Assembly (NCBI RefSeq): GCF_021057185.1
Contig: NZ_CP054059.1
Span: forward strand, 510,001 to 542,000
Direction of reading: 5' to 3'
Length of the DNA stretch: 32,000 bases
Source: Candidatus Absconditicoccus praedator
GTDB taxonomy: Bacteria; Patescibacteriota; Gracilibacteria; Absconditabacterales; Absconditicoccaceae
Position numbers and translations under genes: made by a program. This document shows positions 972 through 29,011 of this stretch, piece after piece. Positions within the stretch are counted from its first letter, which is position 1; every line of letters starts with the position of its first letter. The notes under the pieces are model-generated. The model did no database searches and was not told where the DNA came from. It saw nothing but the letters and a program-made list of their open reading frames with translations.

Positions 972-2495
972 CTAGTCAGATACATTAATATTTATCCTTG
1001 ATCTTATAGACGGGATGGTATCATACCAATGGGGAGTTGTCCTAATCAAAGCAACATCTATCTCATCATAAGATACTATCTCATTTCTTGCTGAAGATAC
1101 TGTTTCTCATAATATATTTCACTTTATCTCATTTTTTATCCTATTTATATCCAAATCAAAATTGTATCACCATATTACATCAACACGAGTTGGTATATTA
1201 TAAACACCATCCTCACCTACTACATCATAAAATATTGGGCTGTTTTTGTCTATCTCTACAAGCTGTAAGTTTTCAGACATTCTATCTGATATATATTCCT
1301 CAACTCAGTTCTTTAAATCACTCCATTCTACATATGGAAATCTAATTATAAAAGAAGCTTGTCATTGAATTGTAGAAGCTGACTCTCACACATCATGCGA
1401 GAGTTGTATATCAATATCAGAAGTATTTATAAGTTGAGAAAAAGGGAAAGTATACTTCTCTTCATAATCTTCCATTAGAGATCAAACTATAGTTCTTTTA
1501 TTATTATTTATATAATCTGAAATATTATTTTCAACATTTTCTATATCTTCTTCTGTTACTTCTCAATCTTCTTCAGTATGTCAGCCAGTAAAATCCTGTA
1601 TTGACTCAGCAAAAATTTCTTCATTATCATAACTTTGAGGAAGATTCCTTATTAATAATCTAGTTCAAGAATCAATATTTCATCTTTCTCATATAATATT
1701 TCAATCTTCATCTTCTACATCTGCCTCTACCTCTACTTCAGCAACACCTGGATCTTCTTGAGTTCAGGACGGTAAGTTTGCCCAATTTTTTGTTCTAAAA
1801 ATCAATCAGTTTTCATCCACAAATCTGGTATTTGAAACCAAGGAATACTCGGTATCAGTTGTATTATAAACTCTTATCATACCAGTTGCAGGTTGTTGAT
1901 TATATGTAAGATCTCAAACATTAAACTCTTTAGAAAATGAGTATTCATAAGTTTTTATATTATATGGGATTCATATTTGTTTAATCTGTGGAGGCTCATC
2001 ACTACTGGCAGGATAATAACGAAAATTATATGTCACATCATCAATATTATAAGCAGGTTTTATATGTATATTTGCAGAAGGTGTAATATATCAATAAAAC
2101 AAGTATAGAATAAAAACCAACAATAAGACTTCTGCTCATATTACAAAATACATAGCATTACTTCTTTGTCTGATTATTTTTTCATGAAAATCTTTTCAAT
2201 AAAAAAAAGTATTAGAGAAAAAACTTATAAATTTTTTATAAAAAGGCTGTCAAATATTAGTAAAATTTACTCAAAGTTTTTTGTAATAATTTTGAACTTT
2301 GGTTTCTCTACACAAAAAATTATAATCTATTTTTTTTGATTCTAAAAGTTCTTTTATTTGTTTTCCCCATCGAATATTATCAAATATTTCATTTTGAGAG
2401 TTAATCCGGATCTTAACTTGTCTTCAAGTTGGGATTTTTTCTAACGTATTAAATATTTTATATAAAGAATCTTTTTTTCAAAAGTTTATATTCAT
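972..2495 (-). CDS. hypothetical membrane-anchored protein (507 aa): cytoplasmic N-terminus, one TM helix (AMYFVIGAEVLLLVFILYLFYGY), large acidic extracytoplasmic domain
   Basis: I checked every codon of this frame and found no TAA or TAG. The ATG directly abuts the TAG stop of the upstream gene (TAGATG at 2493-2498). No family was recognised with confidence. It loosely recalls TM-anchored 'baseplate J-like' proteins annotated in CPR genomes, but that is unverified. Confidence 0.55.
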
Positions 2496-3299
2496 CTATC
2501 ATTTGTTTTTATTATAAATTTCCTTTGATTTGATGTATCTAAAATAATAAAACAGAATAATTCAAGATAAGATTAATGTCCAGTAATTCTTAACATCAAA
2601 ATTATATCAAAACATACTTATTCAAAAGTTATGAGAGTATAACTGAAACTGAAATATAAAATTGAGCATCAATAACAATAATATAAATCACAACAATCAA
2701 ACTCAATATTTTTTCAACACATAACTCATAGAAAACACTAAAACAAAACATAAGATAGAAACCAAAGACAAGATTAATCAAACCGGATAAACTTGATCAA
2801 ATCTATAAATAAAACTTTCTGGAATCAAAGCAGAAACTCATAAAAAACTGTTTGTTGGTTGTCATATAAAATCATCTCCCAATAAAAGAAAGAATCAAAA
2901 AGGTACCAATGCCAAACTTAAACTATAAAAAATTATATCAATCCATTTTAATTGTTCATTTTTAATATCAACATTTTTTAAAAATAATATAGTGCTTAGG
3001 AAAAGTCAAAGACTTATTCAGATAAAACTAAAATCATATCAATAAGGAGAAAGAATAAGCATGAGATCATTTATACTCAAAGGTATTATCAACAAACTAT
3101 CAAACAAATGATACAAATAAGATCAAAAAAAATATGGAAGTATTAAAAAAACAGGAAGCCAGTTAAAAAACCTCCAAAAATTAACATTATATCTTTTTGC
3201 GTAAAAATTCATTAAAAAAACAAATGTTAAAACAAAAACCACAACTCATATTCAAGTCATATATATGGTAATTCAAAACAACTCAAAAAAGGGATACAT
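2496..3299 (-). CDS. polytopic membrane protein, possibly a highly divergent Lgt-like (prolipoprotein diacylglyceryl transferase family) protein
   Basis: 267 aa, with the frame checked codon by codon and no TAA/TAG. Several TM segments are present. The segment order resembles Lgt (FGITIYMTGIG..., YGYDFSFIGISLG, LVPFGFFLLLGDDFIGQPTN, YPVGLILS). The canonical GR.GNF.N.E motif is replaced by LGDDFIG. Confidence 0.45.
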
Positions 3300-8630: not shown

Positions 8631-8873
8631 ATGCAAATAAATTCAACATATACTAATTCTTTATTCAGCATAAGAAAAAATCATTTTTGCAAAAATATAT
8701 TTTATGATGAAAGCTTTTTTAATACCACAAAAAATGTATTAATAAAAGATAAATATACAAATAACAAAAAAGACCTTACTCTATTGAATTTTTACATAAA
8801 ATATTGTACTGAGGTAAGATTATTCTTGTCTGAAATCTCGCAAAATCCTTGTAGATATAAAAGTATTAAATAG
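8631..8873 (+). CDS. hypothetical small ORF (80 aa); may be non-coding
   Basis: Track ORF. It has no glycine and no recognisable motif, and overlaps the convergent trmD 3' end by 8 nt. Confidence 0.2.
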   Translation: MQINSTYTNSLFSIRKNHFCKNIFYDESFFNTTKNVLIKDKYTNNKKDLTLLNFYIKYCTEVRLFLSEISQNPCRYKSIK

Positions 8874-9546
8874 ATCTTTCATTATCCTCTCTTCGTTTTT
8901 TTATCATAGAATGATTTCATGAGAGTAGTTCATCTGGAACATTATATCAATAAACATTTTGAGGCCTTGTATACTGAGGATATTCTATATTTTGCATTTG
9001 TTTGTGTGGAGTATAACTTTCTTCTTGCAAACTATCTTGCTGTCATAACACTCATTCTTTAAGTCTTGTAGTTGCTTCAATAAATGCCATACTTGCTACT
9101 TCTCCTCACATTAATATAAATTTTCATAATGATAATTTTTCAAATTTTTGAGGATAATTATCCATAAAATACTTTTCAAAACGATAGTCTATTCATTCAT
9201 ATCTTCAACAAACAAGTATTAAATCTTCAAAATTTTTGAACCTAATAGCATTTTCTTGATCAAAAATATTTTTACTTGGAGAAAAGTAAATTATCTTAAA
9301 GTTTTGTGTTTTAATTGAATTTATTATATCCATAGTACAATCAATAACTGGTTTTGCTTTTAGAAGCATTCATGATCATCATCAATAGATTTCATCGTCT
9401 ATTTGTTTATGTTTATCATAACAAAAATACCTAGGATTATAAAAATTTAGTTCTATTTTTTTATTGCATACAGCCTTATGTATTATAGAAGTATCAATAA
9501 ATCATTTGAAAATTTCAGGGAATATACTAACTATATGAATTCTCAT
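8866..9546 (-). CDS. trmD: tRNA (guanine37-N1)-methyltransferase
   Basis: 226 aa: MRIHIVSIFPEIFKGF...QIDDEIYGGGSGMLLKAKP...LVCGRYEGIDYR...LSLGKFILMGGEVASMAFIEA...YPQYTRP. The YGGGSGM motif lies at 9367-9387 and uses four TGA codons. 13 of 14 Gly codons are TGA. Confidence 0.92.
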
Positions 9547-9700
9547 CTATTATAAAATTTTATAAAAATATATAAATTAGTCTTATTTAGTTTTATTATT
9601 TTCTGATCATACAATATTATATATAAACTTATAAAATTTATTTGCAATATGTTTTGGATATTTTTTAACCTAATAAGTTAAATTCAGAAAAAGATTTGTA

Positions 9701-9728
9701 TTGACATTACAAACAAAATAATTATAAA
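9701..9728 (+). promoter_or_regulatory. sigma70-like promoter candidate for the PAP2 gene (TTGACA, 16 nt, TATAAA), followed by a strong SD AGGGGG at 9748-9753
   Basis: TTGACA at 9701-9706 and TATAAA at 9723-9728. AAGGGGGA lies 7 nt upstream of the ATG at 9761. The other genes in the window whose upstream regions I inspected have no comparable purine-rich SD. Confidence 0.35.
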
Positions 9729-9760
9729 GAACATGCCAAACAAAAAAAGGGGGAAAAATT

Positions 9761-10558
9761 ATGAAATACAAAATCATTACCATTATTTGCATCTTCTGTG
9801 TTGCAATGTTTAGCAACAACGTTCATGCAAACAACTATAATGAAGGTATTTCCTACAGCAACTATGCTGCTAATTTTGTAAAGATACCTTTTAGAGCCAC
9901 CCTAGAACCGTTTAGAGGAGACCAAAAGGGCATTAAGAGGAATTTAATAATTGCAACAGGAGTAGGTTTAACTCTGGCTTATGATCAAGATATTAGAGAT
10001 TACGTTCAAGATGAAGTATATGGAGGAAGCAATTCATTAAGTAGATTCCTTTATAATGTGGGAAGCAAAGATTACGCTATACCTGGGTTCTTAGGAGTGT
10101 ATGCAATAAGTGCAATTTCTGGAAATAGGTACTTTTTCGACACTATGAACCTATCTTTTCAGTCATTTCTAATCACACAAATGTTTACTGAAATTACCAA
10201 GGGGACAGTAAACAGAATAAGGCCCAGAAATAGCCCTGATGACCCCTTTAACAGAGAAGATGATGCTCAATCATTCTTCTCAGGACACGCAAGTGGAACA
10301 TGGGCAGTTGCTACTGTATTTGCCCAAAGGTATCCATCTTTCCAGATACCAGCATATACTCTAGCAACTTCTGTTTCTCTCTCAAGAGTCTATGAAGACG
10401 CCCATTGGATGTCTGACGTGCTTGTTGGTTCTTTAGTAGGCTATGGAATTGCTAGGCTGACAATTAGACTAAATGATGCATATCCAAATAATCAAGTACA
10501 GGTATCACCTGTGTTTGATGGAGATTCAGTAGGTGCCACCATTGGATTCAGGTGGTAA
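9761..10558 (+). CDS. PAP2-superfamily (type 2 phosphatidic acid / undecaprenyl-PP) phosphatase with signal peptide
   Basis: Track ORF, intact in the standard code. Signal peptide MKYKIITIICIFCVAMFSNNVHA. PAP2 motifs K....RIRP, FFSGHAS and SRVYEDAHWMSD. It has 20 Gly codons, all GGN and none TGA. GC is visibly higher, about 40% in sampled 60-nt lines versus 13-25% in sampled neighbouring lines. Confidence 0.88.
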   Translation: MKYKIITIICIFCVAMFSNNVHANNYNEGISYSNYAANFVKIPFRATLEPFRGDQKGIKRNLIIATGVGLTLAYDQDIRDYVQDEVYGGSNSLSRFLYNVGSKDYAIPGFLGVYAISAISGNRYFFDTMNLSFQSFLITQMFTEITKGTVNRIRPRNSPDDPFNREDDAQSFFSGHASGTWAVATVFAQRYPSFQIPAYTLATSVSLSRVYEDAHWMSDVLVGSLVGYGIARLTIRLNDAYPNNQVQVSPVFDGDSVGATIGFRW

Positions 10559-10566
10559 AAAATACT

Positions 10567-10598
10567 GAGGTGGAAGGAAACCCTTTCCACCTCTTTTT
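10567..10598 (+). terminator. rho-independent terminator, possibly bidirectional (also just downstream of convergent elp3)
   Basis: GAGGTGGAAGG-aaacc-CTTTCCACCTC forms an 11-bp GC-rich stem including one G-U pair, followed by TTTTT at 10594-10598. An A-run precedes the stem. Confidence 0.7.
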
Positions 10599-10622
10599 AA
10601 AAAACAAATTCTAGCATTATAA

Positions 10623-12440
10623 TTATAAATCTTTTACCATATATGTTCACTCCAAATGATATCAAAGTTTTCTATAATAATCTCTAACTCCTACTCAAGA
10701 AATTACAGAGATTTTCTTATAGTTTTTTCATAAAGATATTCTTTCTGATATTTCCATCATTCTGCTTCAAAATCATTTATGCTGAAATGTATCTTCAATA
10801 TTTTTATTTATTTTTGCCAATTGTCAATAAACATGTAATTCCCTAACCATAGCTACATTTTCTCATAATCAATCTCGATTTATAGTATTTTTTTCATAAG
10901 GTAAAAGCAACCTTAAAAAACCATATAAATAACCAAACTCATCCTCAAAACTTATAAAAAACTCTTCACCTACAGATGAAAAATATTTTCTTATAATTAA
11001 AAGTTCATTTTGGGCATCTTCTGTTCTATTTGATATTTCTCTTGCTCTTGTATCCAATGATACAAAATTTCTTGGATTATTTAAATTTGGCTTTCATCAA
11101 ACAATATATGTTTTTTCTGTATTATTTCAATTTTCAAACTCAAAAATATTTTCAAAATTATCTAAATAACAAGAATTGGGATAAAGTCTTTTATAATGGT
11201 TTTCTCTTAGAGAAGAATCTTCTTTGTACTCTTTATGCATATTATTCATTACTATTTGTCTTAGGTTTGTTAGCTTACTTCCTGCAACTATTTCTGTTTC
11301 AGGAATATCTCTAATAAGTCTTTTTATTCTAGTATAAGGAGGAATCGTATCAACTTGAACTTTTTTGGTAATATGTTTTATTTGTTCATTAGTAAGTGGC
11401 TCATAATATCATTCTTTTCGAAGCTCATACAATCTAGTATTTGGAATCACTGAAGTAGGATAAAATTTAATTTCATCAGGCTTCATAAAAACATCTGAAT
11501 ATGCTTTTTCCATTGTTTTTATATCTTTTTCCACACTAGATCAATATAAACCAGGCATAAAATGACAAGAAAACTTAAATCAGTATTGTCTTAATTTATG
11601 CAAAGAGTTCCTTGCCTGTTGTACAGTGTTTCATCTATCATTTTTTTCTAAAACATCATCGTACAAACTCTGTATTCAAATCTCCAGTCTTGTAACACCA
11701 AGCTCTCTCCAAAATTTACAATTTTCATCTGTTACAAATTCTGGTCTTGTTTCTATAGTTAGTCATATGATTCTACAATCAGCTTTTTCATTATTTTTTT
11801 GAGATTCCTCAAGGGTTTTATCAAAATTTTGTTCAAAATTATCAGTAACTGTAAACTTAGAAAATTTTAAATCATTTCAATCTAGTTTATTTTTTGATTT
11901 AAATTCAAAAAAAGTATTGCATGCATCATACAAAGATTTTACAAACCATCTTTTATATTCTTTTGGATAACTATCCCATGTTCACCCCAAAACTATCATC
12001 TCTATTTTATCTATATCATGTCCTGTCATAAAAAGAGACATCAATCTATTATAAGTTTGCTTGATAGGATCAAACTGATTTAGTAATGCTCTCATCGCTC
12101 AAGGCTCTGTATTGATATAACTTTTGGGCATCGTTGCATCATCTGGACAAAAAATACATTTTCAAGGACATGGCCAAGGCTTTGTAAGAACTTGAACTGG
12201 TACAATTCAAGATTTGCTTCTTATTCATCTTTTTCTTAGAGATTTTCTAACATTTGATTTAGGAGTGATTTTTCATTCATCAACCATTTTATTGTATGTT
12301 GCCAAAACCTGCATATTTGTTGGGACATTACTTAATTTTGATTCTTTTGCAAACTTCTTTTTTAAATCCTTGATCAAATCAGGAACTATTTCATTATCTT
12401 GATATGAAACTATTTCTTTTACTAAATTTTCAAGATTCAC
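10623..12440 (-). CDS. elp3: Elp3-family radical SAM / GNAT acetyltransferase (tRNA U34 carboxymethylation enzyme homologue)
   Basis: About 605 aa from GTG at 12440; an in-frame TAA lies 4 codons upstream. Sequence: RSKSGIVPVQVLTKPWPCPGKCIFCPDDATMPKSYINTEPGAMRA...VLGGTWDSYP...IGLTIETRPE...LGVTRLEIGIQS...FMPGLYGS...RIKRLIRDIP...(GNAT) VRELHVYGQL...QHKGFGSRMMEISERIS...GVRDYYRKLGY. It contains track ORF 10869-11057. Stop TAA. Confidence 0.85.
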
Positions 12441-12996: not shown

Positions 12997-14175
12997 ATGA
13001 AAAAACTAAATAAAATCATTGCAAAAATAATAATTTTTTTTATAAAAATATATCAATATACTTTATCACCAGATAAATGAATACCATCTTTTTGGTTAAA
13101 ATGAAAAATATGTGTACACAATCCTCACTGTAGTAAATATTGAATACAAGTACTAGAAAGATACTGATTTTACCCTTGATTTTTTATGTTAATGGAAAGA
13201 GTAAGTAACTGTCATCCTTGGAATAGCAACACCTACGATCCTGCATATTTACAAACAGTTTTTTTTAGTAGTGCTCCTATATGAGTACCATTTCTTGAAG
13301 AATTAATAAAAGACAAAAGATATAATATACAAGCAGTTGTAACACAACCAGATAAACCAGCCGGAAGATGACAAAAAATAAAAGAAAATATAATCAAACA
13401 AGAAGCCAAAAAATTATGAATAAATAAAATTTTTACACCAGAAAAAATAAACCCAAATAAATCTATAGAATGAAAAGAATTTTTCAAGGAAATCGAAAGA
13501 CTAAAACCAGATGTAATATTAGTAATAGCTTATTGAAAAATAATTCCTATCGATTTGCTAAATTTGCCATCAAAATGAGCCTTAAATATTCATTGATCAT
13601 TACTTCCCAAATATCGCGGTGCTTCTCCAATACAATCAGTGTTCTTAAATAATGAAACTTATACTTGAATAACTTTGATGAAGATGGCTCCTAGTATGGA
13701 TACCTGAGACATTATCAAACAATTATCATTTGAAATATGATTTAACTGGACATCAAAAGATATTATTGATAAATTTATGCAAGTATGACCCAAATTTACT
13801 ACAGAAAATATACGAAAATATGCTAAAAAAGAACTTATAGAACATCCACAAGATAAATCAACAGCTACTTATTGCCATAAAATAGAAAAAAAAGACTGAA
13901 AAATAGATATATTTACAACACCTCTTGAGGATATATTCAATAAATACAAAGCATTTTTCTTGTGGCCCAAAATCTGGTTTGAAATAAGTAATAATTTAAA
14001 CAAAAAAATAATAATAGAAGAAATGAAAATAGATGAAGAAAAGTTTGATTTACATAAAAAAAAGCCATTGATTGACAAAGATTTCTATCTAAATCAATCA
14101 ATAGACTTACTAAGAGTAAAGCCTGAATGAAAAAAAGCTATAACATGGAATGAATTTAAAAAATGATATCTTTAA
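12997..14175 (+). CDS. fmt: single ORF fusing YidD (membrane protein insertion efficiency factor) to methionyl-tRNA formyltransferase
   Basis: 392 aa, every codon checked, preceded by TAA TAG. N-terminal 84 aa: IKIYQYTLSPDKG...ICVHNPHCSKYGIQVLERYGFYPGFFMLMERVSNCHPWNSNTYDPAY (YidD). This runs directly into LQTVFFSSAPIGVPFLEEL...TQPDKPAGRG...VIAYGKIIP...LNIHGSLLPKYRGASPIQ...TGITLMKM...DTGDII (Fmt). There is no ATG, GTG or TTG at the Fmt N-terminus. Confidence 0.8.
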
Positions 14176-20463: not shown

Positions 20464-20484
20464 ATGTATATTTTAATATACAAA

Positions 20485-20727
20485 TTATTCTTCATCCTCT
20501 TCATCTTCATCTTCATCTTCATCTTCCTCATCCTCTTCTTCTTCATCTTCTTCATCCTCTTCTTCGTCATCTTCTTCATCTTCATCTCAATTATCACCAT
20601 TTTCCATATCTACGTCTTCTGAATCTTCAGGCTGATCTATTTCTGGATCTTCAATTTCATCAACACATCCAGCTAAAGTAATTGCTGAAAAAACTATTAA
20701 AACAAATATACTCAATTTATTAATCAT
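20485..20727 (-). CDS. small lipoprotein with an extreme poly-Asp/Glu tail
   Basis: 80 aa: MINKLSIFVLIVFSAITLAGCVDEIEDPEIDQPEDSEDVDMENGDNGDEDEEDDEEEDEEDEEEEDEEDEDEDEDEEDEE. Signal peptide with lipobox LAGC. The GAA/GAT-rich coding repeat spans 20488-20600. A terminator follows. Confidence 0.65.
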
Positions 20728-28225: not shown

Positions 28226-29011
28226 ATGCAAAAAAAATTTTCTCTTGTGCTTGGTGGATGAGCAGCTAGATGACTAGCTCACATCGGTGTGATAAAATAC
28301 TTGGAAGAAAAAAATATATTAATAGATGAAGTTATTTGAACTTCTATGTGAAGCATAGTATGAGCATGTTATGCATTTGGATACAATAGCAGACAAATGG
28401 AAGAAATAATTGAAAATACAAGTTTTTTGAAAATGATAGATTTTTTTGATAATGAGTGAGTAATTAAATGAAAAAAGATGCTCAACAAACTTGATGAGTT
28501 ATTTGGAGACAAAAAAATATCTGATTGCTCTAAAAAATTAAAAATAATTTGAACAAATCTACATAACTGAGAAAAAAAAGTATTTAAAAAAGAACAAATC
28601 AAAGATGCAATAAGAGCAAGTATAGCATTACCAGGCATAATTGCCCCTTATAAGATTAATTGAATTAAATATATAGATTGATGAGTTATTAGTAATCTTG
28701 CAGTAGAAGAATCTGAAAATAAAAATATCATTGCAGTATCAATAATCAGAAATATTGAAAAAGAATACACCTCAGAAAACAATAAATGATTTTTTGGGCT
28801 AAAAAGATGATCAACAACAAAAATACTTCAAAAAACAATTCAAATTATGATTAGAGAAAATGAAAAAAACTCACTAGAAAAGTCATCCAATAAAAATATT
28901 TTTTACATAAGACCAGAATTCAACAACTTCAACTATTACGATTTTTGGAAATACAAAGAAATAATACAAATATGATACAATTATGCCAAAGAAAATTTAT
29001 CACTAAAATAA
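28226..29011 (+). CDS. patatin-like phospholipase (RssA type)
   Basis: 261 aa: MQKKFSLVLGGGAARGLAHIGVIKYLEE...VIGTSMGSIVGACYA...KYIDGGVISNLAVE. Motifs are the oxyanion GGG.(A)RG, the nucleophile G-T-S-M-G and the catalytic DGG. Confidence 0.85.

What the first reader, a model, noticed from the sequence alone, without database searches (positions are those of the whole stretch)
9547..10622. Single-gene PAP2 phosphatase island with standard-code hallmarks inside a recoded genome (candidate recent HGT)
The 265-codon PAP2 ORF is the only sizeable glycine-containing ORF that is intact in the standard code. All 20 of its Gly codons are GGN and none is TGA, whereas 13 of 14 are TGA in trmD immediately upstream.

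Other features also set it apart from its neighbours:
- GC content is clearly higher, about 40% in a sampled 60-nt line versus 13-25% in sampled neighbouring lines.
- It has its own TTGACA/TATAAA promoter-like pair.
- It has a strong AAGGGGGA Shine-Dalgarno sequence. No comparable purine-rich SD was seen upstream of dnaG, ftsE, the deacetylase or the patatin gene.
- It ends at an 11-bp GC-rich hairpin terminator, unlike the weak AT hairpins elsewhere in the window.

The protein has a classical signal peptide. It ends ...VGATIGFRW, with alternating hydrophobic residues and a terminal aromatic, which resembles outer-membrane-protein C-termini of diderm bacteria.

Together this suggests recent acquisition from a standard-code, possibly diderm, donor. 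A TGA-free gene ending in TAA is exactly the kind of gene that can cross the code barrier inward.
Basis: partly seen in the sequence, partly recalled or inferred. Interest (0 to 1): 0.7.

Follow-up and report, generated by a model that had tools for sequence, protein, structure and literature searches.

The report
Foreign PAP2 gene shared by predator and prey
A phosphatase gene in the recoded genome of the bacterial predator Candidatus Absconditicoccus praedator is a real import from an ordinary-code bacterium, and a near-identical copy, still attached to a scrap of a predator gene, sits inside a jumping gene of its prey Halorhodospira, which suggests DNA has crossed the genetic-code barrier in both directions.

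Summary
The window uses code 25 (TGA=Gly). Its PAP2 protein is identical to the annotated PAP2 of Ca. Absconditicoccus praedator. The ORF (9761-10558) has 20 GGN and 0 TGA glycine codons (P=3e-13), 38% GC against about 27%, and a codon-usage z of -8.7. It has the only Shine-Dalgarno-like motif among 24 genes and the strongest terminator hairpin in 20 kb. The promoter argument is weak, because such motifs occur at chance frequency.

HGT from a standard-code donor is supported. Apart from copies of the same cassette, homologues are 53% identical or less, in standard-code lineages. The closest contigs have 38-39% GC and matching GC1/2/3. The donor clade is unresolved.

New result: window 9592-10746 (PAP2 plus the last 41 elp3 codons, with four TGA-Gly) recurs at 98% identity in a 1,638-bp AT-rich module. 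That module is precisely inserted in an ISL3 transposase gene within 65-75% GC DNA whose IS proteins cluster at 90% or more with Halorhodospira, the predator's known prey genus. It is also found joined end to end (circle or tandem). The protein is probably a secreted PAP2 phosphatase; its substrate is unknown.

HGT into Absconditabacteria is already known. Export into prey-type DNA appears unreported.

The parts
8866..9546 (-). trmD (tRNA m1G37 methyltransferase), the native code-25 neighbour. It is not part of the shared segment.
   Evidence: Pfam tRNA_m1G_MT on the identical Logan contig; 13 of 14 Gly codons are TGA.
9592..9760 (+). AT-rich upstream region that travels with PAP2. It contains the TTGACA (9701-9706) / TATAAA (9723-9728) pair and the SD-like AAGGGGGA (9747-9754). 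The left limit of homology to external copies is fuzzy (9592-9599).
   Evidence: 98% identical in L001-L006 and L017. Motif positions. The SD reads AGGGT in the external copies.
9761..10558 (+). PAP2-superfamily phosphatase CDS, 265 aa, TGA-free, stop TAA. Signal peptide residues 1-23. Catalytic motifs K147-x6-R154-P155, S174-G175-H176, S208-R209-x5-H215-x3-D219.
   Evidence: Identical to the Ca. Absconditicoccus praedator protein UFX82988.1.
10567..10593 (.). GC-rich hairpin (11 pairs) followed by a T-run, between the convergent PAP2 and elp3 genes. Probably a bidirectional intrinsic terminator.
   Evidence: Best terminator-like site in 20 kb. dG -18.4 on the + strand and -18.1 on the - strand.
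10623..10746 (-). Last 41 codons plus stop of the native elp3 gene, with four in-frame TGA-Gly codons. This piece is co-transferred with PAP2 in the external 1,638-bp module.
   Evidence: The tail is conserved in the Elp3 of V. lugosii and other Absconditabacterales.
10623..12440 (-). elp3 (radical-SAM/GNAT tRNA-modification enzyme), 605 aa, native code-25 gene.
   Evidence: Pfam Radical_SAM and Radical_SAM_C; 67% identical to Ca. Vampirococcus lugosii Elp3.

Best explanation
The window comes from Candidatus Absconditicoccus praedator, or a near-identical strain. This is a code-25 (TGA=Gly) CPR bacterium that preys on Halorhodospira.

The PAP2 gene, with its own SD and terminator, is a single-gene horizontal acquisition from a standard-code bacterium of about 38-40% GC, probably a diderm. 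It landed between trmD and elp3 and shows no amelioration: no GGN-to-TGA change, and GC3 still at donor level. It could be expressed on arrival because it has no in-frame TGA and ends in TAA.

The product is a catalytically intact PAP2 phosphatase with a cleavable Sec signal peptide and no hydrophobic transmembrane helices. By inference it works outside the predator's cytoplasm, at its surface or at the predator-prey interface. There it would dephosphorylate prey-derived phospho-esters (lipid phosphates or other phosphomonoesters). This fits a predator that cannot make its own lipids and encodes a patatin-like phospholipase nearby.

The same cassette has also moved outward. A piece equal to window ~9599-10746 (PAP2 plus the elp3 tail) was joined to 483 bp of another AT-rich code-25 sequence, giving a 1,638-bp circular or tandem intermediate. 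This recombined at a T-run into an ISL3 transposase gene in Halorhodospira-type DNA. There it persists in several structural variants across several samples.

Shown: the foreign character of the gene, the identity of the organism, the shared segment, the precise ISL3 interruption, the end-to-end joint, and the Halorhodospira affinity of the flanking IS elements.

Inferred: the donor type, the enzyme's location and role, the circular intermediate, and that the ISL3::module locus resides in Halorhodospira cells.
For: Foreign origin:
- 0 of 20 TGA Gly codons (P=3e-13); codon-usage z=-8.7; GC 0.383 against about 0.27; unique SD; unique strong terminator.
- Homologues other than the cassette copies are 53% identical or less, and the contexts examined are standard-code with 38-39% GC and matching GC1/2/3.
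- PAP2 is absent next to elp3 in three relatives.

Organism: the PAP2 is identical to UFX82988.1 of Ca. A. praedator on a 1,129,696-bp contig. Elp3 is closest to V. lugosii at 67%. The prey of A. praedator is H. halophila (PMC9698310).

Function:
- Pfam PAP2 71 bits; all three catalytic motifs present.
- AF2 pLDDT 86; best Foldseek hits are PgpB, LpxE and PgpB.
- Only the signal peptide exceeds TM-like hydropathy.
- A related predator lacks phospholipid synthesis and uses secreted lipases (PMC8080830). A patatin gene is present at 28226-29011.

Export:
- Window 9592-10746 is 97.7-97.9% identical to L001-L006, including the elp3 tail with TGA codons.
- The module interrupts ISL3 between ...AAITF and DAFHIVK.... 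Both junctions lie on single contigs in three samples.
- The rejoined transposase aligns end to end with intact 418-aa copies.
- IS1634, IS66 TnpC/TnpB, IS1380 and ISL3 proteins cluster at 90% or more with Halorhodospira. One is identical to a protein of strain 9621. These strains have 68% GC (PMC8877833).
- L017 joins the module's two ends, with a continuous 208-codon ORF containing 8 TGAs across the joint.
- T-run arithmetic, 6+2 = 5+3, is consistent with a conservative crossover.
- The exported copy carries derived changes at conserved sites, including T185S where 38 of 38 others have T.
Against: - The donor lineage is unresolved (NJ bootstrap 28% or less). The best outgroup is only 53% identical, so the true donor is unsampled or the gene has diverged quickly.
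- No mobility signature (TSD, TIR, tRNA, integrase) marks the island in the window, so the insertion mechanism is unknown.
- The enzyme's substrate and location are untested. All NCBIfam equivalog scores are far below cut-off.
- The closest intact ISL3 copy has TTC, not TTT, at the target codon, so the 'conservative' crossover may be off by one nucleotide.
- All ISL3::module contigs are 6.2 kb or shorter and end in IS sequence, so linkage to a Halorhodospira chromosome is inferred from IS identity, not seen directly.
- The origin of the extra 483 bp is unknown.
- No sequenced Halorhodospira isolate carries this PAP2.
Confidence: 0.75

Rival explanations
1. The direction is reversed. The 1.64-kb module is a small mobile or circular element that delivered PAP2 into the A. 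praedator chromosome. The chromosomal copy would be a derived, partly deleted integrant, for example through recombination at the elp3-tail homology.
For: The module exists in an end-to-end joined form and can integrate elsewhere (ISL3). Homology with the window stops abruptly at both ends.
Against: - The elp3 tail in the window is the conserved C-terminus of a full-length native Elp3. In the module it is a 39-residue stub fused to unrelated low-complexity sequence, so the chromosome arrangement looks ancestral.
- The module has no replication or recombination gene and no repeats.
- The window has one tail only and lacks the 483-bp segment.
Confidence: 0.1
2. The ISL3::module locus is not in Halorhodospira cells. 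It lies in an uncultured Absconditabacterales genome, or another element, that had previously taken up a block of prey IS-rich DNA. On this view the transfer runs from prey to predator, followed by an internal rearrangement.
For: Absconditabacteria encode ComEC/ComEA/type IV pili and are thought to import host DNA (PMC8080830). All contigs are short and end in IS sequence. Other Absconditabacterales occur in the same sample series.
Against: - The AT-rich piece interrupts the IS, not the reverse.
- Up to 4.6 kb of contiguous 65-70% GC nested IS sequence flanks it, with no further AT-rich DNA.
- No Elp3 at 90% identity or more to the window's was recorded from those samples, whereas the module is on at least 8 contigs.
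- The exported PAP2 shows relaxed constraint.
Confidence: 0.12
3. PAP2 is a native gene whose odd composition reflects selection (for example on expression level or protein composition) rather than foreign origin.
For: The upstream and downstream non-coding DNA is as AT-rich as the host. The gene is intact and present in a cultured strain.
Against: - No other gene in 32 kb departs from the host's Gly-codon or synonymous usage.
- GC1, GC2 and GC3 are all shifted and match the standard-code homologues.
- No Absconditabacterales homologues were found.
- It has the only SD in a genome region that otherwise lacks them.
Confidence: 0.02
4. The island is an assembly chimera or contamination from a co-occurring standard-code organism.
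For: It is a single gene with sharply different GC inside data from a co-culture or metagenome.
Against: - An identical protein is annotated on a single 1.13-Mb A. praedator contig.
- An independent Logan assembly of SRR15691272 reproduces the contig.
- The PAP2-terminator-elp3 junction and 169 bp upstream are reproduced at 98% identity in seven contigs from other samples.
Confidence: 0.01

Closest known systems
Horizontally acquired genes in Absconditabacteria and other Patescibacteria (for example 126 HGT genes inferred in Ca. Vampirococcus lugosii, PMC8080830; Bacteroidota and Omnitrophota donors, PMC12455944)
   Same: A gene of non-CPR origin in a reduced, host-dependent CPR genome. The likely route is uptake of environmental or host DNA.
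   Different: Here the gene is completely un-ameliorated in a code-25 genome (0 TGA, donor-like GC3). It keeps its own SD and terminator. The same cassette is also seen outside the recipient.
Code-11-compatible (TGA-free) phages associated with Gracilibacteria and Absconditabacteria (PMC10746230)
   Same: [quoted passage not shown]
   Different: This is a single cellular gene, not a phage. There were no PHROG hits and no phage-borne close homologue. The companion ORF208 and elp3 tail are readable only in code 25.
Class A non-specific acid phosphatases (PhoN/PhoC; soluble periplasmic PAP2 enzymes)
   Same: Sec signal peptide, soluble or amphipathic helical core, and the three PAP2 motifs. Weak but significant sequence matches to PDB entries 9htz, 1iw8 and 1d2t.
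   Different: NCBIfam PhoC scores 21 bits against a cut-off of 430. The protein has extra N-terminal helices and a C-terminal beta-hairpin ending in an aromatic residue. Foldseek ranks membrane PAP2 enzymes higher.
Membrane PAP2 lipid-phosphate phosphatases (B. subtilis PgpB 5jki, LpxE 6ebu, E. coli PgpB, SepP/BcrC-type undecaprenyl-diphosphatases)
   Same: Best structural matches. The best NCBIfam hit is SepP (E=5e-11). The catalytic core is the same.
   Different: Scores are far below the equivalog cut-offs (42.8 against 250). The core helices are not hydrophobic enough for transmembrane segments (mean KD 0-0.9).
Symbiont-to-host DNA transfers (for example Wolbachia to insects, cited in PMC12455944) and filler-DNA capture at chromosomal breaks
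   Same: A piece of the genome of an intimately attached organism is found integrated in the partner's DNA, without transposition hallmarks and with only microhomology at the junctions.
   Different: Both partners are bacteria, and the donor uses a different genetic code. The insert is circularly permuted, implying a circular or tandem intermediate. The target is an IS transposase gene.
Integron gene cassettes and other small circular gene modules
   Same: A module of about 1-1.6 kb that exists joined end to end and also integrated.
   Different: By inspection there is no attC-like site, no GTTRRRY core at the joint and no integrase nearby. The module carries its own promoter-like region.

Membership tests
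PAP2 superfamily (PF01569) | Profile match above Pfam's gathering score | tested here: met
   71.3 bits against a cut-off of 27.2, E=8e-20, residues 135-237.
PAP2 superfamily (PF01569) | Three catalytic motifs: K-x6-RP, (P)SGH, SR-x5-H-x3-D | tested here: met
   K147..R154-P155; F173-S-G-H176; S208-R209..H215..D219. R154, P155, S174, G175, R209, H215 and D219 are invariant, and H176 nearly invariant, in 40 homologues.
PAP2 superfamily (PF01569) | PAP2 helical-bundle fold | tested here: met
   AF2 pLDDT 85.9, pTM 0.81. Foldseek hits at probability 1.00 to 5jki, 6ebu, 8bm3 and the class A acid phosphatases.
Class A non-specific acid phosphatase (PhoC/PhoN equivalog) | Score above the NCBIfam equivalog cut-off | tested here: not met
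   NF045654 scores 21 bits against a cut-off of 430.
Undecaprenyl-diphosphatase SepP, PgpB and BcrC equivalogs | Score above the NCBIfam equivalog cut-off; polytopic membrane topology | tested here: not met
   SepP 42.8 against 250; PgpB 15.5 against 261; PRK11837 15.9 against 229. No 19-residue window other than the signal peptide exceeds KD 1.6.
Outer-membrane protein (beta-signal, beta-barrel) | C-terminal alternating hydrophobic strand ending in an aromatic residue | tested here: met
   The window protein ends ...VGATIGFRW. Nearly all homologues listed end in ...x-h-x-h-x-F. AF2 predicts a beta-hairpin at 246-263 with low confidence.
Outer-membrane protein (beta-signal, beta-barrel) | A membrane-spanning beta-barrel domain | tested here: not met
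   The model has only two short strands; the rest is helical.
Horizontally acquired genomic island | Composition and codon usage deviating from the host genome | tested here: met
   GC 0.383 against about 0.27; z=-8.7; 0 of 20 TGA.
Horizontally acquired genomic island | Phylogenetic incongruence and absence from relatives | tested here: met
   Named homologues are all non-CPR, and the three nearest outgroup contigs are standard-code. PAP2 is absent at the elp3 locus in three relatives. The exact sister group is unresolved.
Horizontally acquired genomic island | Mobility hallmarks: tRNA target, integrase, flanking direct repeats | tested here: not met
   No tRNA, no flanking repeats, and no recombinase among the window ORFs.
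Insertion sequence / transposon (for the 1,638-bp module) | Terminal inverted repeats, target-site duplication, transposase | tested here: not met
   No TIR; at most 2-3 T of microhomology at the junctions. ORF208 has no Pfam or PHROG match beyond the Elp3/GNAT tail.
Integron gene cassette (for the module) | attC recombination site with a GTTRRRY core at the crossover; IntI nearby | tested here: not met
   The joint reads CAG-TTTTT-GA and the target reads ACC-TT(T/C)-GAT. There is no core site and no integrase on any contig. This was by inspection only; no attC model was run.
Candidatus Absconditicoccus praedator genome | Sequence identity to the deposited genome | tested here: met
   The PAP2 protein is identical over 265 of 265 residues to UFX82988.1/WP_231180771.1 on a 1,129,696-bp contig. 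Only this one protein was compared. The genome was not found in the species-representative collection.

The most novel reading that the evidence does not exclude
The PAP2 cassette is a code-neutral gene that moves physically between a code-25 predator and its standard-code prey on a ~1.6-kb circular module. Its complete lack of TGA is then maintained by selection for expression in both hosts rather than by recency alone. This would be the first documented case of DNA from a recoded CPR predator becoming fixed in the genome of its prey in nature. It would show directly which genes survive crossing the code barrier: the TGA-free PAP2 stays intact, while the TGA-containing elp3/ORF208 part is unreadable.
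Probability: 0.2. Interest if true: 0.85.

Novelty: new variant of a known kind. Interest (0 to 1): 0.62.

Why it matters
UGA-to-glycine recoding in Absconditabacteria and Gracilibacteria has been proposed to isolate these bacteria genetically from their neighbours (PMC8080830). This locus offers a concrete natural test case in a cultivable predator-prey pair.

A gene that entered a code-25 genome unchanged shows what kind of gene can cross inward: TGA-free with a TAA stop. The same gene, with a tell-tale stub of a code-25 gene attached, then appears in prey-type DNA. That shows predator DNA can leave and become integrated.

If the prey location is confirmed, epibiotic predation would be shown to be a two-way conduit for DNA. 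The fate of code-25 sequence in a standard-code cell could then be studied experimentally: PAP2 is intact in six of seven external contigs, while ORF208 is unreadable in the standard code.

On its own, the HGT island is an ordinary, if unusually clean, example of a known phenomenon.

Tried and rejected
- Synteny test (are trmD and elp3 adjacent in relatives?). It was uninformative. The only species-representative hit has 52-55% Elp3 identity and no shared neighbours. The relatives at 61-67% have other genes next to elp3.
- Further copies of the cassette. An exact 43-mer found nothing in JGI metagenome contigs or IMG/VR.
- Phage vehicle. No PHROG hit. Viral contigs hold only partial PAP2 matches at 31-32% identity.
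- Plasmid origin of the high-GC flanks. No megablast match in PLSDB.
- Sample identity. No paper mentions the run or assembly accessions.
- Donor identification by NJ bootstrap. Unresolved: an FCB-like sister in 28% of replicates, the Halorhodospira clade in 3.5%.
- Transposon or integron explanation for the module. No TIR, TSD, attC-like core or recombinase.
- Origin of the module's extra 483 bp and the ORF208 N-terminus. No Pfam or PHROG family. Only low-complexity matches in the window and in the other Absconditabacterales contigs I held.
- Flanking repeats, tRNAs and Rfam families in the window. None.
- AFDB50 fold search, to name the closest full-length relatives. The library was unavailable.
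- The A. praedator description paper (doi 10.1111/1462-2920.15823) is not held.
Full report
**1.
The window is a code-25 genome. Code 25 gives 29 ORFs of at least 100 aa; code 11 gives three, two of them antisense to real genes.

The third is the PAP2 ORF at 9761-10558 (+), 265 aa, ending in TAA.
- Its 20 glycine codons are all GGN (GGA 12, GGC 2, GGG 2, GGT 4).
- The other 23 genes use TGA for 76% of glycines, with a per-gene range of 0.57-0.95. trmD uses it for 13 of 14. P(0 of 20) = 3.3e-13.
- GC is 0.383 against 0.23-0.31. GC1/2/3 is 0.44/0.41/0.30.
- A leave-one-out synonymous-codon likelihood puts the gene at z = -8.7; every other gene is within +/-1.8.
- AAGGGGGA lies 7 nt before the ATG, and none of the other genes has an SD-like motif.
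- The hairpin at 10567-10593 (11 pairs, dG -18.4) is the strongest terminator-like site in 20 kb.
- The TTGACA-16-TATAAA pair exists. However, sigma-70-like pairs are no more frequent than in shuffled sequence (141 found, 144 expected), so it carries little weight.

**2. What the protein is.**
- Pfam PAP2 scores 71 bits against a cut-off of 27, and all three catalytic motifs are intact.
- An AlphaFold model built from 40 homologues is confident (pLDDT 86). Its best matches are B. subtilis PgpB, LpxE and E. coli PgpB, followed by the soluble class A acid phosphatases.
- All NCBIfam equivalog scores are far below cut-off, so this is an uncharacterised PAP2 subfamily.
- Only the N-terminal signal peptide (…VHA|N) reaches transmembrane-like hydropathy. 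The core helices are amphipathic.
- Members of the family carry a signal peptide and a C-terminal amphipathic strand that nearly always ends in F or W. The model gives a low-confidence beta-hairpin there, not a barrel.
- My reading, which is inference, is a secreted, soluble or peripherally attached phosphatase.

**3. Whose genome it is.**
- The window's PAP2 is identical to 'phosphatase PAP2 family protein [Candidatus Absconditicoccus praedator]' (UFX82988.1), on a 1,129,696-bp contig.
- An independent Logan assembly of SRR15691272 reproduces the region.
- Elp3 is closest to Ca. Vampirococcus lugosii at 67%.
- A. praedator is a cultured obligate predator of Halorhodospira halophila from a haloalkaline lake (PMC9698310).
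- These facts, together with paragraph 5, make an assembly chimera very unlikely.

**4. Foreign origin.**
- Apart from copies of the same cassette, the best homologues are 53% identical or less.
- The closest (L007; L008/L009) lie in standard-code genomes of 38-39% GC, in a conserved CitMHS transporter-PAP2-QueA context. Their PAP2 GC1/2/3 (0.46/0.37/0.31 and 0.45/0.37/0.32) nearly equals the window gene's.
- Named family members are Bacteroidales, Chitinispirillales, Halanaerobiales-type Bacillota, Cloacimonetes and Halorhodospira.
- The window protein sits on a long branch. An FCB-like clade is its sister in only 28% of NJ bootstraps, and the Halorhodospira clade in 3.5%. The donor clade is therefore not identified.
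- The three nearest Absconditabacterales (61-67% Elp3 identity) have neither PAP2 nor trmD beside elp3. One keeps the SecA-GrpE-M48-Fmt block on the other side.
- No TSD, tRNA or recombinase marks the island.
- 'Recent' can only be bounded. The absence of any GGA-to-TGA change among 12-20 sites implies a per-site probability below about 0.14-0.22 at the 5% level. The insertion predates the 2% divergence described next.
- HGT into Absconditabacteria is already documented: 126 genes in V. lugosii (PMC8080830). TGA-free, code-11-compatible phages are also known (PMC10746230).

**5. The unexpected part: the cassette outside the predator.**
The 97%-identical protein P0001 lies on at least 8 contigs from several samples.

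*The shared segment.*
- Window 9592-10746 matches six of these contigs at 97.7-97.9% identity, with identical end points.
- That segment includes the upstream region, PAP2, the hairpin and the last 41 codons of the native elp3, with four in-frame TGA-Gly codons.
- The Elp3 tail is conserved in other Absconditabacterales, so the external copies descend from a code-25 chromosome in which PAP2 already lay next to elp3.

*The host DNA.*
- In those contigs the piece is part of a 1,638-bp AT-rich module (30% GC) embedded in 65-75% GC DNA.
- The module splits an ISL3 transposase gene exactly between …AAITF and DAFHIVK….
- The rejoined protein aligns end to end with intact 418-aa ISL3 transposases. 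An intact relative breaks at precisely that codon in the alignment.
- Both junctions lie on single contigs in three samples, and the right junction on two more, including a Logan assembly.
- The flanking IS1634, IS66 (TnpC and TnpB), IS1380 and ISL3 proteins all cluster at 90% or more with Halorhodospira proteins. One is identical to a protein of strain 9621.
- Those strains form an H. halophila-like group of 68% GC from Egyptian and Mongolian soda lakes (PMC8877833).
- Further IS insertions and a 236-bp deletion give several structural variants of the locus.

**6. A circular or tandem intermediate.**
- Contig L017 joins the module's right end directly to its left end.
- Across the joint runs one continuous 208-codon ORF with 8 in-frame TGAs, ending in the Elp3 tail. 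In the ISL3 copies this ORF is split into two halves on either side of PAP2.
- The integrated copy is thus a circular permutation of the joined form, which requires a circle or a tandem array.
- The joint has five T's. The ISL3 junctions have six and two. With a TTT target codon, 6+2 = 5+3, which is a conservative crossover in a T-run. The nearest intact ISL3 has TTC there, so a one-base discrepancy is possible.
- There is no TIR, TSD, attC-like core or recombinase.
- The extra 483 bp and the ORF208 N-terminus match nothing informative.
- Between the window and exported copies there are 8 nonsynonymous and 6 synonymous changes (omega about 0.38). The exported copy carries the derived states at conserved sites, including T185S where 38 of 38 others have T. 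The SD GGGGG reads AGGGT there.
- L017's PAP2 has a premature stop at Y74.

**7. Interpretation and limits.**

*Best supported.* A single-gene import into A. praedator from a standard-code bacterium of about 38% GC. The gene was readable on arrival because it lacks TGA, and it encodes a secreted PAP2 phosphatase. A role in processing prey-derived phospho-esters is plausible: a related predator lacks phospholipid synthesis and relies on secreted lipases (PMC8080830), and a patatin-like phospholipase lies at 28226-29011.

*Also supported.* Export of the cassette, through a circular or tandem intermediate, into an IS element of Halorhodospira-type DNA.

*Not shown.*
- That this DNA sits in living Halorhodospira cells. 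The contigs are 6.2 kb or shorter and end in IS sequence.
- The donor clade.
- The insertion mechanism in the window.
- The enzyme's substrate.

A soft argument for prey residence: no Elp3 at 90% identity or more to the window's was recorded from those samples, although the module was recorded repeatedly.

Noticed in passing
window 12997-14175 (+): A single 392-aa ORF combines a YidD (membrane protein insertion efficiency factor) domain with methionyl-tRNA formyltransferase (Formyl_trans_N). The same fusion (389 aa) occurs in a 61%-Elp3 relative (L015/L016).
   Followed up: no
window 20488-20587 (and the ORF on the - strand, about 20480-20700): A (TCTTCA)n / 24-nt tandem repeat encodes, on the minus strand, a long D/E-rich tail of a small protein with a lipoprotein-like …LAGC… motif, upstream of secA. 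GC skew reaches -0.6 here. It resembles the module's acidic ORF208 only in being low-complexity.
   Followed up: partly
window 28226-29011 (+): A patatin-like phospholipase (Pfam 123 bits), native code-25 usage with 15 TGA-Gly codons. With PAP2 it would give two lipid-active hydrolases within 20 kb in a predator lineage reported to lack phospholipid synthesis.
   Followed up: partly
window, all 23 native genes: No Shine-Dalgarno-like motif occurs within 25 nt upstream of any native start codon. The upstream regions are A/T-rich, which suggests SD-independent initiation in this organism. The imported PAP2 is the sole exception.
   Followed up: partly
window 972-2495 (-) and 2496-3299 (-): Two adjacent ORFs have no Pfam family: a 507-aa protein with one hydrophobic segment and acidic stretches, and a 267-aa highly hydrophobic multi-pass protein. 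Their stop and start abut (2495/2496).
   Followed up: no
P0047 (database entry for the window's Elp3): The public protein collection holds this Elp3 translated with TGA as Trp (W at every TGA position). This lowers its apparent identity to 96%. It is a reminder that code-25 proteins in large collections may be mistranslated.
   Followed up: yes
L001 1526-1761 versus L002/L003/L004/L006: The Halorhodospira-type ISL3 carrying the module exists with and without a 236-bp internal deletion bounded by a TCAA microhomology. It is itself truncated by another element after …FKRFALTV. Different IS elements (IS1634, IS1380, a DDE_5 family IS) abut or cut the module in different contigs, so this is an IS-rich, fast-changing locus.
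   Followed up: partly
L017 positions 1-30 (PAP2 codon 74): In the end-to-end joined form of the module, PAP2 carries TAT to TAG (Y74 to stop), so that variant is a pseudogene or contains a sequencing error. The six ISL3-integrated contigs all keep the full 265-aa ORF.
   Followed up: partly
L007, L008/L009: In the closest standard-code homologues, PAP2 sits between a CitMHS/TrkA_C-type transporter and QueA, in contigs of 38-39% GC from different samples. No SD-like motif precedes PAP2 there, unlike the window copy.
   Followed up: partly
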